From assembly GCF_009914755.1 (NCBI RefSeq), contig NC_060927.1: a DNA stretch of 64,000 nucleotides. One strand, given 5' to 3'. The translations under genes were made by a program, and so were the position numbers. A model generated the notes under the pieces. The model saw only the letters and a list, made by a program, of their open reading frames with translations. It did no database searches and was not told the origin of the DNA. Of the stretch, positions 11,073 through 18,751 are shown one piece after another. Origin of the DNA: the human T2T-CHM13v2.0 reference genome, Homo sapiens. Each line of letters opens with the position of its first letter. The first letter of the stretch is position 1.

Positions 11073-11316
11073 AAACCAAGACTAAATCCTGCCCAAGCAG
11101 CAGTGTGGGGGTGGAGGCAACCTAGCAGGCCCTCCCAGCCAGAGCTGACTGGGAGCAGCCTAGTGTGGATTTCTCCATCTGGTCATGTGTTTTGGTCTTT
11201 CCCTCATAAACACCATCTCTTTTTAGTCGAAAAGCCAATATTTGTTAAGGAGCAGAACACTATTTTTTACCCCAGTTCTTTCTCTCCCTTGTGCCTTACC
11301 CCAGTAGGCTGATGGG
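11073..11316 (+). repeat. Probable donor of the inverted copy at 18507-18751
   Basis: Reverse complement of 18507-18751; 14 substitutions and 1 indel in about 245 nt by hand count. Confidence 0.95.
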
Positions 11317-11388
11317 TAGGTACATCAGCCCACCTCTGAGTGGTACGGTAATGAAGCCAGCCTCACTCACCCCTGCCATCACACACTC

Positions 11389-11687
11389 TTTTTTTTTTTT
11401 TTTTTTGAGACAGAGTCTTGCTCTGTCGCCCAGGCTGGAGTTCAGTGGCACAGTCTCGGCTCACTGCAACCTCCACCTCCAGGTTCAAGCAATTCTCCTG
11501 CCTCAGCCATCCAAGTAGCTGGGATTACAGGCATATGCCACCACGCCTGGCTACTTTTTGTATTTTTAGTAGAGACATGGTTTCACCATGTTGGGCAGGC
11601 TGGTCTCTAACTTCTGACCTCAGGTGATCTGACTGCCTTGGCCTCCCAAAGTGCTGGGATTATAGGCATGAGCCATTGCACCCGGCC
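11389..11687 (-). mobile_element. AluS
   Basis: Full dimer, TSD catcacacact. Confidence 0.93.
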
Positions 11688-13263
11688 CATCACACACTGA
11701 GTAAAGCCAAGGGGTGTACTTGTTGATTTTTCCTGCAAGCCCAGCCGTATGCTTTGCACACAATTGCCTTTTAACCTCACAGCAACCCTCTAAGATGTGT
11801 TTCATTGCTTCTGTTTTCTAGTAGGGAAATGTGGTGTGGCCACAAACTAGTGAGGATGCGAGGACTTGAACCCAAGTCAGATGGCTCCAGGGTCTTTCCT
11901 GAGACCATACTCTCCCAGGCTCTTTCCTGGAGCAAGGAGTGTGAGCCTAAGGAGGCTTCAGTGGGGCACATGGAAGGTGGCTGAGTGCTGTGATTCTTCC
12001 TTCACAGACCAAGTATTATTTTATACCAGGAACAGTAAGGTAGGCCTCCGTGCCTCAGCCTTCTTAGACTTTATCACTGATGAATCGCTGTGTCTCAGGA
12101 GCTGCTGGCCAGACTGGCTTAATTGTTAATTTGTGCAGAGTCATTGAGGTATGGGTGGCAGGTCGCAAAAGATGATGTTTTGAGCCTCACTTGTGTTCTA
12201 AGAGAGCTCAGATTGTGTGTTGGGCTCTGTGGTTGCCTGTGAATGTGCAAAATATTTTTAATGCTAAAAACCAGGTATTACAGAATGTAGAAATGCAGCT
12301 TGGAGGAACAATTCTAGTTGGAATCCCAGATTCGTAAATTTGGTCTCTTGGCAGCTAGATTGCACTTTCTAGAGCTCAGGAAGATATAAAAGTTGACACT
12401 TTTATGTAGATTTATGTGGAGTGTGGCTGAATTGCCAATGCTTTTGTAGCTATAACTTTGAATTGCCTGACTTTTGTATTGAAAACAATGGTGCATTAAC
12501 GTAGGCGTTGGCTTATTTGAAAAGCAGGCCAAAGGAAAAGACTTTTTATTTGACTTCTGTGGTGGTCTCCCTAAGGAGTCTTACCCACAAGCTATCCCAC
12601 AGCTTGTGGGCAGATGTGAGCAACAGGAAGCCCCACCCCACAGACACAGGGTTCCCCCTTGGAGTTGCAGGCAGGGTTCAGTCTGGAATTTGGGTGCTGT
12701 GGGGCAGATTCTCATAGATGATCTTTAAACGTTTAGTTGTTCAACAACTATTTTATGGGAAGGGATGAACTCATGTTGTATCAAGAAAAACTGTATGCAA
12801 CTTCAAAATAGGAAATTTACTACACAAATTTATTATGTAGATTTTCCAAGTCAGACAACTACTTGGAGGCACATTAAATGATTTAAAATTTAGGTAGTAA
12901 AATCAACCACTTATTACCAGTGAATAGCATTATGCACACATAATAGAGTTTCAGAATTTTATCTGCCTGCAACCCCAGACTTGACATGTCTCTCCCCTGG
13001 TTGGTCTCCGAGTTGGTAGAAGGCTTGGTGGTCGCATCATGCAGCATTCCTGTGTGCGCTGCAAGTCATGCTTAACAGAGATAGGGCTACCCCCGATGGA
13101 GAAGGGCAACTCACTTAACCGCCTCCATCTTTCCACTTTTGCTCATTGATGTTTAACATGTTATCAGTATGTATAGAATGGCCCCCAGAGAGTTGTTTGA
13201 TTGATGCTTCTTTAATCAGCCTGTGATTATAGACTCAAACTGAAGAAATCTGAACTCACAGAT

Positions 13264-13492
13264 CGGGGTTTCTCCACCTTGGCGCTATTGATTGACATTT
13301 GGGACTGGGTGATTATTTTGTTCTGGGGACTGTCTTGTTCACTATAGGTTTTTAAAGCAGCATCCCTGGCCTCTATCCACTAGATGCCAGTAGCACACAT
13401 ACAGCATACACACCCCAGTTGTGACAAACAAAAATGTCTCCAGTATTTGCCAGATGGTCTCTGGGGAACAAAATTTTCCCGGTTGAGCACTC
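13264..13492. mobile_element. MER20 hAT-Charlie element
   Basis: gtttctccaccttggcgctattga...agcagcatccctggcctctatccactagatgccagtagc...gttgtgacaaacaaaaatgtctccag. Confidence 0.85.
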
Positions 13493-14367
13493 TTCCTTTA
13501 GAGAAGGGAAGAAAGGACTATTAACATCACCTCTGTGGGTACTGAAACCCCTAGAAGACCCTTGTCTACAGAACTGGGTTTTGAATAGGCACTTCCCAGT
13601 GAAAATATGAAAATAGACTCTTGATTTCTAGCCAGGTGACTAAAATAAAAGCTTTTCAGCAGTTTAATTTCAGAAAGATGGCTTTGATTATTTTGATTGA
13701 GATAAAGCATTAGAAGACTCAAAATAGCTGTTTTTGTTTTGCTTTGTTTTAATGAGAAAATCAGGGAAGGTTCCAGAGGGCTCTATGACTTTCAGGAGAT
13801 GTATTTCTAAGTGGTGTCTGTTCCCAACTGTGTTTATGATCCTTGTGAGACTGAACTCCTGGTGAGCCTTGCGAGTGTCTGTTCTGGCATTTCTTCATGG
13901 AGTGGACATTACTGAAGGTCGGTCGGTGGCTGGGCCCTGTGTGCAGCAGATGGGAATAAAAGGGACAGGAGCACAGTGTCTTCCTCAGGGCACTCCCAGC
14001 CTCCTCTGGGCAGGTGAGTCACGCATTTCAGTACGACGGAACTTATGAGTGCTGTGAATATGCCTGGAAATGAACCCGCCAGTGATTGGAATAATGGTCC
14101 GGAAGCAGTGGTTTTCAAGCTGTACTCTTTTAGCAGTTGAGGTTGCTTTTTCTTCAAATGACATGTGCAGAAATGTAATATAAATAAAATAGATCAGATC
14201 CAAATTTGAAGCCAGGGTGAAAGCAGGGGCCTGTAATTCCCCACCCCTCCCTTTGCCTCAGAGCTGACACTTCCAAAGAGAATGCCCTTTCGTTACAGGT
14301 TTGACTGAAAGTAGGCTAACGCTTGGTTGGATGAAGATCATTGTTTTTCCTGACTAGATCTATCCTC

Positions 14368-14676
14368 TTTTTTTTTTTTTTTTCTGAGACAGAGTCTTGC
14401 TCTGTTGTCCAGGCTGGAGTGCACTGGCGTGATCTCAGCTCACTGCAAGCTCCGCCTCCTGGGTTCACGCCCTTCTCCTGCCTCAGCCTCCCAAGTAGCT
14501 GGGACTACAGGTGCCCACCACCATTCCTGGCTAATTTTTTTTTTTTTTTTGTATTTTTAGTAGAGACAGGGTTTCACCGTGTTAGCGAGGATGGTCTCAA
14601 TCTCCTGACCTTGTGATCCCCCCGCCTCAGCCTCCCAAAGTGCTGGGATTATAGGCATGAGCCACTGCGCCCAGCC
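14368..14676 (-). mobile_element. AluY
   Basis: Full dimer, ctgcaagctccgcctcc and cgtgttagc diagnostics. Confidence 0.93.
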
Positions 14677-14744
14677 CTTTTTTCACTTTAGGTAAAAGTG
14701 ATTTTCAGAACCATCAACCTAGGTGAAGATAACAATGCTGTTTC

Positions 14745-17251: not shown

Positions 17252-17341
17252 GAAATAACTACGTGTTTGCCAGATTACTACAAGTGGACTCAGTATCTCT
17301 TTATTAAACTGTATGAGGCTGGGCTGGCCTATCAAAAGGAG
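17252..17341 (+). CDS. LARS2: LARS2 coding exon (recalled exon 7), [30 protein letters not shown]
   Basis: Acceptor ttcttctttgttggcag and donor GAG|gtaagt; 90 nt, phase 0-0; matches the LeuRS YYKWTQxLFxKLYExGLAY motif. Confidence 0.97.
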
Positions 17342-17717
17342 GTAAGTTAAAATTAGCTGGACTTTTAAAATTCAGTGAATCTCTTTAGGATACATCATTG
17401 TAGTAGCAGCGAAAATGAACGCTACCTCAAGTTCATAAAATCAGTCACAGCAGACCCAGAACGTAACTACTTCCTACTTAAGTTTAGTGTCATCAAGACA
17501 GGGTCTGGGCTTCTTTTACCCTTGAATTCTTACCCCATAACCTATTGTCTGGTTCCTGTAATGAGATCAAGGAGAGGGCATAAGAAGAAAGAACACAGGC
17601 TTCTCAAATCCTAGCTCAGCTCCCTCTCCCAGCTATGTGAACAGCTGGGTAACTTAACCTCTAGGAAACATGGTTTTGTATCTGCTAAATGGGAATGGGG
17701 ACATTTTCCTTGTGGGG

Positions 17718-18088
17718 TACTATGGTTTGGATGTCCCCTCCAAAACTCATGTTGAAATTTAATTGCCATTGTGATGGATTTAAGAAGAGGGACCTTTAAG
17801 AAGTGAGTGGGTCACGACAGCCCTGTCCTAATAAATGGATTAATGTTATTATTGTGGGAATGAGCTCCCAATAAAAGGATGAGTTCAGCCAAATTCTCTG
17901 TGTGTGTGTGTCATACGGTCACTTGCTGTTCTACTTACTGCCATGGGATAATGCAGCACAGAGGCCCTTGCAGATGTTGGCACCATGCTCTTGGACTTCC
18001 TGACCTCCAGAATCAGCCAAATAAACTTCTATCAATAAATTACCCAGTCTGTGGTATTCTATTACAGTAGCAGAAAATGGAGGAAGAC
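17718..18088 (+). mobile_element. MaLR solo LTR (MST family)
   Basis: ctatggtttggatgtcccctccaaaactcatgttgaaa start; aataaattacccagtctgtggtattct...gaagaca end. Confidence 0.82.
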
Positions 18089-18239
18089 ACAGGGTTCTTG
18101 GAAAGATTAAAGGTAATAGTTAAAGAACAGCTATCACAGTGGTCTCCCGAGAAATGAAAGTGTTTGTTATGGTGGGAGCTCAATAATGATAGGTAAGACT
18201 TGGAATGGTGGGAGATGAGGCAAGAGCATCATAGTGTGG

Positions 18240-18327
18240 CCTAGAACTGTCCAGGATGATAGCCACTAGCCACATGTGGTTGCTTAAATTTAAAGTAATT
18301 AAAATTAAATAGTATTTTAAAAGTCAG
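18240..18327. mobile_element. MER3/MER33 terminal fragment
   Basis: ctgtccaggatgatagccactagccacatgtggttgcttaaatttaaa...aattaaaattaaa. Confidence 0.65.
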
Positions 18328-18510
18328 AGCTGGGACAGTGGCTCACACCTGTAATCTCAGCACTTTGGGAGATTGATGCAGGAGGATTGCTTGATGCCAG
18401 GAGTTCAAGACTAGCCTGGGAAACACAGTGAGACCCTGTCTCTACAAAAAGTAGGAAAAAATTAGTCCCAGTTACTCAAGACGGTGAGGTAAGAGGATCC
18501 CTTGAGCCCA
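18328..18510 (+). mobile_element. AluJ-like, 3'-truncated with no A tail
   Basis: Left arm plus part of right arm, stopping at cttgagccca where the inverted copy begins. Confidence 0.85.
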
Positions 18511-18751
18511 TCAACCTACTGGGGTAAGGCAAAAGGAAGAGGAAAGAACTGAGGTAAAAAATAGTGTTCTATTCCTTAACAAATATTGGCTTTTTGACTA
18601 AAACGAGATAGTGTTTATGAGGAAAAGACCAAAACACATGACCAGATGGAGAAAACCACACTAGGCTGCTCCCAGTCAGCTCTGGCTGGTAGGGCCTGCT
18701 AGGTTGCCTCCACCCCCACACTGCTGTTTGGTCAGGATTTAGTCTTGGTTT
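18507..18751 (-). repeat. Inverted copy of 11073-11316
   Basis: About 94% identity by hand count; ccca shared with the truncated Alu end. Confidence 0.95.

What the first reader, a model, noticed from the sequence alone, without database searches (positions are those of the whole stretch)
11073..18751. A 245-bp non-transposon inverted duplication brackets an in-frame LARS2 exon
Seen: 11073-11316 and 18507-18751 are reverse complements (14 substitutions and 1 indel by hand count, about 94%). They sit 5.9 kb upstream and 1.2 kb downstream of the 90-nt phase 0-0 exon 17252-17341. I do not recognise the unit as a repeat family. The downstream copy starts exactly where an AluJ is cut off, sharing ccca (gagCCCA|tcaacc). 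The Alu tail and the rest of its host MER3/33 element are missing. Inference: a deletion was repaired by templated synthesis from 7 kb away (polymerase-theta or template-switch signature). Unlike Alus, the two arms have only each other as partner, so the pre-mRNA could form a dedicated duplex that loops out the exon, causing in-frame skipping, back-splicing or ADAR editing. A TGCATG (RBFOX motif) at 17193-17198, upstream of the acceptor, would also favour skipping.
Basis: partly seen in the sequence, partly recalled or inferred. Interest (0 to 1): 0.8.

Follow-up and report, generated by a model that had tools for sequence, protein, structure and literature searches.

The report
Old inverted patch-repair copy in LARS2
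A 245-base stretch of single-copy LARS2 intron DNA was copied backwards into a deletion scar 7 kb away, on the other side of a small exon, millions of years ago; it is a clean fossil of a known kind of DNA repair, and nothing yet shows that it affects the gene.

Summary
11073-11316 and 18507-18751 are reverse complements with 14 substitutions and 1 indel. A search of the whole T2T genome finds only these two places. The same tool finds 85 to 6210 candidates for four neighbouring repeats, at identities down to 77%. So the unit is a local duplication, not a repeat family.

The upstream arm lies in 779 nt of single-copy DNA. The downstream arm lies at a rearrangement junction. It abuts an old Alu cut in its right half, and the two share CCCA. 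The Alu tail and the right half of the host MER-type element are absent from the window.

Best reading: one microhomology-primed template-switch or snap-back repair event filled a deletion. At 245 nt the insert is far longer than the 2-35 bp Pol-theta inserts described in PMC7454005.

The functional claims are untested. In silico the arms are the strongest cross-exon pairing and have no other partner. However, the exon has near-consensus splice sites and encodes conserved LeuRS core. TGCATG is not enriched, and no LARS2 circRNA or exon-7 skipping was found in print.

One unexplained point: 12 of 14 substitutions are G/C upstream versus A/T downstream.

The parts
11073..11316 (+). Upstream arm, the inferred template. 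It lies in LARS2 intron 6 inside single-copy DNA.
   Evidence: The 779-nt query 10600-11378 found only itself and the other arm in the whole genome at E<=1. No truncated repeat abuts it.
18507..18751 (-). Downstream arm, the inferred derived inverted copy, in intron 7
   Evidence: 94% identical to the reverse complement of the upstream arm. It lies between a truncated Alu and 15 unassigned bases.
18507..18510 (+). CCCA microhomology shared by the Alu end and the copy end, the inferred priming site. It pairs with TGGG at 11313-11316.
   Evidence: Read. The chance of 4 or more nt of microhomology at a random junction is 0.016.
18329..18510 (+). About 84 nt of body and the A tail are missing.
   Evidence: SRP-like Rfam hit at 18329-18444. 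75.8% identity to a window Alu over positions 18-142. The cut point was read by eye against the Alu printed. No orphan Alu tail was found in the window.
18244..18328 (+). Left ~85 nt of a MER-type short DNA-transposon-like repeat that hosts the Alu. The right half is missing.
   Evidence: 85 first-look candidates genome-wide at 78-95% identity. Eight of the nine fetched relatives continue for well over 100 nt beyond this point, and one carries an Alu of its own there. That continuation is not found near the junction.
18752..18766 (.). 15 nt between the copy and the next repeat. Origin unassigned (native flank or filler).
   Evidence: Homology to the old repeat family ends at about 18767. No second template of 13 nt or more was found in the window.
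18767..19508 (-). Old interspersed repeat (MaLR-LTR-like by recall), split by a 518-nt solo ERV LTR at 18799-19316 (minus strand)
   Evidence: Repeat: 2444 candidates at 77-88% identity, and homology crosses the LTR site. LTR: 1189 candidates, full-length copies at 92-94% identity.
17252..17341 (+). LARS2 coding exon (90 nt) bracketed by the arms
   Evidence: Hub annotation. Frame 1 is open and matches LeuRS 124-151. Splice sites are ttggcag|G and GAG|gtaagt.
17193..17198 (+). TGCATG, 54 nt upstream of the acceptor
   Evidence: Present, but the window holds 29 copies against 41.9 expected by shuffling, so there is no enrichment.
11379..11690 (-). Alu next to the upstream arm. In the predicted fold it pairs with the truncated Alu next to the downstream arm and so extends the arm-arm helix.
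   Evidence: I5 (73% complementary). 148 predicted pairs in the 8.9-kb MFE fold.

Best explanation
This is a fixed, primate-age fossil of a repair event. A break or stalled fork inside an old Alu in LARS2 intron 7 lost the Alu's last ~84 nt and tail, the right half of its host MER-type element, and an unknown length of DNA beyond. The exposed plus-strand 3' end (...GAGCCCA) annealed through CCCA to TGGG at 11313-11316 on the same strand, 7.2 kb upstream. That could be a snap-back or a switch to the other template strand. The end was extended for about 240 nt to 11073, then released and joined to the far side of the gap. The result is an inverted copy of single-copy intron-6 DNA sitting at a deletion junction. 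Shown: the pair, its uniqueness in the genome, the truncated Alu and MER element, and the 4-nt microhomology. Inferred: the direction of copying, a single event, the enzymology and the age. K2P 0.060 suggests very roughly 14-30 Myr, using recalled neutral rates of 1-2.2e-9 per site per year. The pair is most likely neutral. Its RNA pairing potential is real on paper but unproven in cells.
For: Two and only two genome places, with positive controls of 85 to 6210 candidates at identities down to 77% for neighbouring repeats. Sharp homology borders. The upstream context is single-copy, while the downstream context is a junction with a 3'-truncated Alu. An Alu is not expected to arrive lacking its 3' end (recalled rule of target-primed insertion). 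The Alu tail and the MER right half are absent from the window. CCCA microhomology, p about 0.016. Geometry: the template lies 5' on the same strand as the priming end, as snap-back or inverted template switching requires (read). The published MMB-TI signature is an inverted copy of a nearby template flanked by microhomology, and such events occur as human germline variants (PMC8421209 passages).
Against: No outgroup genome was available, so the pre-event allele, the direction of copying and the one-event model are inferred. Microhomology at the second junction cannot be scored because the original recipient sequence is unknown. The insert (245 nt) and template distance (7.2 kb) exceed what the cited surveys cover: MMBSearch looks within 100 bp, and Pol-theta inserts are 2-35 bp. 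The 12:1 G/C-to-A/T asymmetry between the arms is not predicted by simple neutral divergence after a faithful copy.
Confidence: 0.65

Rival explanations
1. Two steps. A longer inverted duplication of intron-6 DNA was first inserted in intron 7. A later, unrelated microhomology-mediated deletion then removed one end of the copy together with the Alu tail and the MER half. The homology would therefore end at the Alu only because of that second deletion.
For: The end of homology coinciding with the Alu cut, and the CCCA microhomology, fit a simple later deletion equally well.
Against: It needs two rearrangements where one suffices. The other homology border (11073/18751) is just as sharp. The tools available here could supply no intermediate allele.
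Confidence: 0.15
2. The pair is a working RNA element. In the pre-mRNA the arms form a duplex of about 230 bp that loops out the 90-nt exon. This would cause in-frame skipping, back-splicing or ADAR editing, with the TGCATG upstream of the acceptor adding RBFOX-dependent repression.
For: The arms are the best cross-exon inverted match (368 bits against at most 309 for Alu pairs) and have no within-intron competitor. Cofold ddG is -298 kcal/mol with 233 intermolecular pairs. In an 8.9-kb MFE fold the arms pair (231 bp) and the adjacent Alu pair extends the helix by 148 bp. [quoted passage not shown]
Against: There are no RNA data here. Nothing in print was found: 'circLARS2' gave 0 papers. The one paper whose LARS2 passages were read names it only as a predicted miRNA target. 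The 3 papers holding 'LARS2', 'exon 7' and 'skipping' concern, by their titles and abstract openings, SMA (two papers) and PRRC2B. Cross-exon Alu pairs give similar energy (-257 to -290). Only 3 of 14 mismatches are G.U wobbles, so there is no sign that pairing was preserved. The exon has near-consensus splice sites and encodes conserved LeuRS core, so skipping would probably give a dead enzyme. TGCATG is not enriched. MFE folds of kilobase RNAs ignore kinetics and proteins.
Confidence: 0.07
3. The copy is a captured fragment: a free DNA fragment or a reverse-transcribed piece of LARS2 intron RNA was ligated into a double-strand break (templated sequence insertion without L1 hallmarks).
For: The source lies in a transcribed intron. 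The sharp borders and the accompanying deletion fit filler capture.
Against: The 4-nt microhomology at the Alu junction favours primed synthesis. No A tail or target-site duplication is present at either end of the copy (read). The cis position on the correct side, in the correct orientation for snap-back, would be a coincidence.
Confidence: 0.1
4. Both arms are members of a rare or very old repeat family that the search missed.
For: The genome tool warns that counts are lower bounds and that very common words are skipped. No repeat library (Dfam) was available.
Against: The first look found 2 candidates for the arm and 2 for the 779-nt context at E<=1, while repeats of 77-88% identity are found in thousands. 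Two members of an old family would not be 94% alike and 7 kb apart by chance.
Confidence: 0.03

Closest known systems
MMBIR/FoSTeS templated insertions (MMB-TI; PMC8421209)
   Same: An inverted copy of a nearby template, microhomology at the junction, replacement of the original sequence, and occurrence as germline or evolutionary variants.
   Different: The survey tool in that paper looks for templates within 100 bp and inserts up to read length. Here the template is 7.2 kb away and the insert is 245 nt. Microhomology is verifiable at only one junction.
Polymerase-theta end joining with snap-back or distant templated inserts (PMC7454005 and the work it cites)
   Same: Microhomology-primed copying at a resected 3' end, templates that may lie many kb away, and a deletion at the break.
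   Different: The reported inserts are 2-35 bp (5-15 bp in the reporter). 245 nt is about 7 or more times the upper figure.
Inverted Alu pairs and other reverse-complementary matches that drive circRNA formation and exon skipping (PMC8330042)
   Same: Complementary sequences in the two introns flanking an exon. Pairing across the exon competes with pairing within an intron.
   Different: The arms are not transposons, are unique in the genome and have no competitor. No circular or skipped LARS2 product is known from the searches made here. By recall, exons that circularise alone are usually much longer than 90 nt.
Inverted duplications at inversion breakpoints (staggered-break model, recalled from Drosophila work)
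   Same: A short inverted duplication brackets a segment of several kb.
   Different: That model requires the bracketed segment to be inverted. Here it holds a sense-oriented, conserved coding exon, so the model does not apply.

Membership tests
Interspersed repeat / transposon family | Many dispersed copies in the genome | tested here: not met
   The arm query and the 779-nt context query each gave 2 candidates and 2 matches, both being the arms. Control repeats gave 85, 1189, 2444 and 6210 candidates.
Interspersed repeat / transposon family | Match to a curated repeat library (Dfam/Repbase) | not testable with these tools
   No repeat library is on hand. Rfam gave no hit in either arm.
Microhomology-mediated templated insertion (MMBIR/FoSTeS or snap-back) | The insert is an inverted copy of a template nearby on the same chromosome | tested here: met
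   94% reverse-complement identity, template 7.2 kb away.
Microhomology-mediated templated insertion (MMBIR/FoSTeS or snap-back) | Microhomology at the priming junction | tested here: met
   CCCA is shared by the Alu end and the template end. Chance 0.016.
Microhomology-mediated templated insertion (MMBIR/FoSTeS or snap-back) | Microhomology at the resolving junction | tested here: inconclusive
   The copy ends ...ggttt and the flank begins tttt. The pre-event recipient sequence is unknown.
Microhomology-mediated templated insertion (MMBIR/FoSTeS or snap-back) | Original sequence lost or replaced at the recipient site | tested here: met
   The Alu is cut at about position 213 of the window's ruler Alu, and no tail fragment is present. 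The MER right half is absent.
Microhomology-mediated templated insertion (MMBIR/FoSTeS or snap-back) | Pre-event allele without the insert in an outgroup | not testable with these tools
   No primate or other mammalian genomes are held.
Pol-theta (TMEJ) templated insert | Short insert, 2-35 bp in the cited data | tested here: not met
   The insert is 245 nt, against the 2-35 bp and 5-15 bp ranges in PMC7454005 passages.
L1-mediated templated sequence insertion / retrocopy | 3' A tail and target-site duplication | tested here: not met
   No A tail at either end in the sense required and no flanking duplication (read).
Inversion-breakpoint inverted duplication | The bracketed segment is inverted relative to the ancestor | tested here: not met
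   The bracketed exon is in the sense orientation, in frame, and matches LeuRS 124-151.
Functional intronic complementary pair (circRNA / exon-skipping RCM) | Complementary sequences in both flanking introns that outcompete within-intron partners | tested here: met
   It is the top cross-exon match and has no within-intron partner. The arms pair in the 8.9-kb MFE fold.
Functional intronic complementary pair (circRNA / exon-skipping RCM) | An observed back-splice or skipped product that depends on the pair | not testable with these tools
   No RNA data. The literature searches found none.

The most novel reading that the evidence does not exclude
The inverted copy created, in the primate lineage, a private duplex of about 230 bp (about 380 bp with the adjoining Alu pair) across LARS2 exon 7. 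This duplex would be heavily ADAR-edited in pre-mRNA and would measurably raise in-frame exon-7 skipping or a 90-nt exon-7 circle. That would give a lineage-specific brake on mitochondrial LeuRS output. A second, independent reading: the one-sided G/C-to-A/T changes in the copy are the scar of error-prone or damaged single-stranded synthesis at its birth.
Probability: 0.08. Interest if true: 0.55.

Novelty: new member of a known kind. Interest (0 to 1): 0.3.

Why it matters
This is a well-preserved natural example of a long (245 nt), distant (7.2 kb), inverted templated insertion at a deletion junction in the human germline lineage. Its size and distance lie beyond what read-based surveys of such events are built to capture. 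Because the two arms are unique in the genome, the locus would also be a clean natural test of whether a non-Alu complementary pair across a small constitutive exon has any effect on editing, skipping or circularisation. That question is hard to isolate with Alus, which have many partners. If the pair has no RNA effect, it is an ordinary neutral repair scar. LARS2 is a disease gene (Perrault syndrome, recalled). The longest perfect identity block between the arms is only 36 nt, so by recalled rules of thumb recombination between them to invert the exon is unlikely.

Tried and rejected
- Inversion-breakpoint duplication: rejected, because the bracketed exon is sense-oriented and conserved.
- L1-type retrocopy: rejected, no A tail or target-site duplication.
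- ADAR-edited RNA template: rejected. With the upstream arm as source the transitions run G-to-A and C-to-T, not A-to-G. With the downstream arm as source they are a 6:3 mix on the two strands, and no dsRNA partner would have existed before the duplication.
- APOBEC-type deamination of the copy: only 3 of 9 transitions are in a TpC context by eye, so there is no signature.
- Transcription-strand mutational bias as the cause of the asymmetry: by recalled rates it predicts a symmetric excess that is not seen.
- A second template for the 15 unassigned bases 18752-18766: the best match is a 12-mer at 5124, which is chance level.
- The two old repeats at ~17700-18090 and 18767-19508 as a further inverted duplication: they are only about 82% alike over short stretches and belong to a family with 2444 candidates. 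They are independent copies.
- The other non-Alu inverted pair, 20908-21169 / 25927-26188: an ordinary repeat with 6210 candidates.
- Rfam: no family in either arm, only Alu-derived SRP and miRNA-like hits elsewhere.
- Literature: 'circLARS2' gave 0 papers. LARS2 with circRNA terms: among the 15 papers listed, 3 hold LARS2. One of these was read at its LARS2 passages and names LARS2 only as a predicted miRNA target; the other two were not opened. LARS2 with 'exon 7' and 'skipping' gave 3 papers whose titles and abstract openings concern SMA (two papers) or PRRC2B (listing only). LARS2 with A-to-I/ADAR: 3 of the 10 listed papers hold LARS2 (two are mouse studies, one a nanopore RNA-modification study), and none was opened (listing only).

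
Full report
**1. The observation**

11073-11316 (244 nt) aligns with the reverse complement of 18507-18751 (245 nt). The alignment has 230 identities, 9 transitions, 5 transversions and one 1-nt indel, with K2P 0.060. 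The repeat finder lists the ungapped core as 210 nt at 95% (I1).

With 100 nt of flank added on each side, homology starts and stops abruptly at those coordinates. The arms lie 5,936 nt upstream and 1,166 nt downstream of the 90-nt exon 17252-17341. That exon is open in frame 1 and aligns with residues 124-151 of bacterial leucyl-tRNA synthetase structures (E 5e-8).

**2. Not a repeat family**

The window's own 3.1-Gb assembly could be searched.

- The upstream arm found two places, itself and the other arm, and the first look gave only 2 candidates.
- A 779-nt query, 10600-11378, at E<=1 again gave only those two. So the upstream arm sits in single-copy DNA.

The tool warns that its counts are lower bounds, so I ran controls from the same neighbourhood:

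| Query | Candidates | Identity |
|---|---|---|
| Solo LTR 18799-19316 | 1189 | 92-94% |
| Old repeat 19317-19508 | 2444 | 77-88% |
| MER-type piece 18244-18328 | 85 | 78-95% |
| Other non-Alu inverted pair, 20908-21169 | 6210 | — |

The search therefore sees families down to about 77% identity and sees none for the arms. Rfam has no hit in either arm. No repeat library (Dfam) was available, so that check remains open.

**3. Anatomy of the downstream site**

Reading the plus strand:

- **18244-18328.** The left ~85 nt of a MER-type element. Eight of nine fetched relatives continue for well over 100 nt past this point.
- **18329 onward.** An old, diverged Alu is inserted in the MER element. It has an SRP-like Rfam hit at 18329-18444. 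It is 75.8% identical to a window Alu, where the other long Alu matches are 80-91%.
- **...GAGCCCA, 18510.** The Alu stops here, in its right monomer, at about position 213 of the 322-nt ruler Alu printed (by eye). About 84 nt of body and the A tail are gone.
- **18507-18751.** The inverted copy. Its first four bases, CCCA, are also the last four of the Alu.
- **18752-18766.** 15 unassigned bases.
- **From ~18767.** The end of an old interspersed repeat, minus strand. Its family homology runs across the site of a 518-nt solo LTR (18799-19316) and on to about 19508.

No orphan Alu tail and no MER right half lie near the junction or anywhere relevant in the window. None was tested against a library.

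**4. What happened (inferred)**

By the recalled rule of target-primed insertion, an Alu is not expected to arrive lacking its 3' end. So the Alu|arm boundary is a rearrangement junction, and the downstream arm is the derived copy. The upstream site shows no junction.

The plus-strand 3' end ...CCCA can pair with TGGG at 11313-11316 on the same strand. Extension from there to 11073 gives exactly the inverted copy seen. This is the geometry of snap-back synthesis on a long resected tail, or of a switch to the opposite template strand at a collapsed fork. The template lies on the side and in the orientation that this geometry requires.

Four or more bases of junctional microhomology are expected at 1.6% of random joins. 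The second junction (...ggttt|tttt...) may hide up to 3 nt of microhomology, but the original recipient sequence is unknown.

- The published signature of MMBIR-type templated insertions is an inverted copy of a nearby template flanked by microhomology, and such events exist as human germline variants (PMC8421209, passages read).
- Pol-theta templated inserts are quoted as 2-35 bp, or 5-15 bp in a reporter, with templates sometimes many kb away (PMC7454005, passages read).

At 245 nt the insert fits a template-switch or extended-synthesis event better than classic Pol-theta filler. The enzyme cannot be named from sequence alone.

A two-step history would give the same present structure and cannot be excluded without outgroups. 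In that history a longer copy was later trimmed by a deletion.

**5. Age**

K2P 0.060 between the arms implies roughly 14-30 Myr, using recalled neutral rates of 1-2.2e-9 per site per year. The event postdates the old Alu. Its divergence is of the same order as the pairwise divergence (6-8%) among copies of the neighbouring LTR family. This is a rough inference.

**6. An unexplained asymmetry**

In 12 of 14 substitutions the upstream arm has G or C and the downstream copy has A or T. All 9 transitions go that way. The two-sided binomial p is 0.0039, and p is 0.0034 for 12 of the 13 strong/weak differences. These tests are post hoc.

GC is 49.2% upstream and 44.9% downstream, against 41-42% in the flanks. 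Two copies diverging neutrally should differ symmetrically. The possible explanations are:

- the template arm is constrained;
- the copy was born mutated, through error-prone synthesis or a damaged single-stranded intermediate;
- chance.

Context does not point to APOBEC (3 of 9 in TpC by eye), and the direction is wrong for an ADAR-edited RNA template. An outgroup would settle this.

**7. The functional claims**

*On paper.* The arms are the best inverted match between intron 6 (the part inside the window) and intron 7: 368 bits, against 309 or less for 39 other matches, essentially all of them Alu pairs. Unlike the Alus, the arms have no within-intron partner.

- Cofolding gives 233 intermolecular pairs and a net -298 kcal/mol.
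- Three cross-exon Alu pairs give -257 to -290 kcal/mol.
- Two within-intron Alu pairs give -330 to -350 kcal/mol.

In a minimum-energy fold of 11000-19900 (8.9 kb) the arms pair with each other (231 pairs). The Alu next to each arm pairs with the other (148 pairs), so the helix is extended and 11691-18328, including the exon, is looped out.

*Against a role.*

- MFE folds of kilobase RNAs ignore transcription kinetics and proteins.
- The exon has a near-consensus donor (GAG|gtaagt) and a good pyrimidine tract.
- The exon encodes conserved synthetase core, so an in-frame loss of 30 residues would probably inactivate the enzyme (inference).
- Only 3 of the 14 mismatches are G.U wobbles, so nothing suggests that pairing was preserved.
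- TGCATG at 17193-17198 is real, but the window has 29 copies against 41.9 expected. One copy 54 nt upstream of an acceptor is weak evidence on its own.

*Literature.* Reverse-complementary matches promote both back-splicing and skipping in C. elegans (PMC8330042, abstract read). For LARS2 I found nothing:

- 'circLARS2' gave 0 papers.
- The one paper whose LARS2 passages were read (PMC6749718) names LARS2 only as a predicted miRNA target.
- The 3 papers with 'LARS2', 'exon 7' and 'skipping' concern, by their titles and abstract openings, SMA (two papers) and PRRC2B (listing only).
- The LARS2/A-to-I listing was not read further. The two hits that pair LARS2 with A-to-I editing in title or abstract are mouse studies.

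Supplementary circRNA or editing tables were not searched and could hold entries for this locus.

**8. Verdict**

A microhomology-primed inverted templated insertion at a deletion junction is the best mechanism. The specific Pol-theta attribution is weakened by the insert length. Function is unproven and, in my estimate, unlikely to be biologically important.

It is a new example of a known kind of event. Its interest lies in its length and distance, in the clean junction, and as a natural test bed for non-Alu intronic pairing.

Noticed in passing
window 14359-14684 (-) and 14739-15055 (+): Two full Alus in inverted orientation, only about 55 nt apart and about 90% complementary (I2/I3). They form 278 pairs in the 8.9-kb fold and draw sub-threshold mir-1268/mir-1972-like Rfam hits. 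This is a textbook hairpin substrate for A-to-I editing in LARS2 intron 6.
   Followed up: partly
window 20908-21169 and 25927-26188: Another non-Alu inverted pair in intron 7 (79% over 266 nt). The genome search shows an ordinary high-copy repeat with 6210 candidates at about 80-83% identity.
   Followed up: yes
window 18799-19316 (-): Complete 518-nt solo ERV LTR (TG...CA) inserted in an older repeat, with near-identical 4-nt flanks (gtag/atag). Its family has at least 1189 candidates, and full-length copies are 92-94% identical. The family name was not determined.
   Followed up: partly
window 11073-11316 vs 18507-18751: One-sided substitution pattern: 12 of 14 differences are G/C in the upstream arm and A/T in the downstream arm, with GC 49.2% against 44.9%. 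Unexplained.
   Followed up: partly
locus L020 (G000:C2:55504014-55507080): An unrelated copy of the same MER-type element also carries an Alu inserted at nearly the same internal A/T-rich position as in the window (alignment). Probably target-site preference.
   Followed up: no
window 16287-16449 (+): An isolated Alu right-monomer-like fragment (Alu positions 146-301, 75% identity) lies 800 nt upstream of the exon. It overlaps the retained part of the truncated Alu by about 60 positions, so it is not the missing tail.
   Followed up: yes
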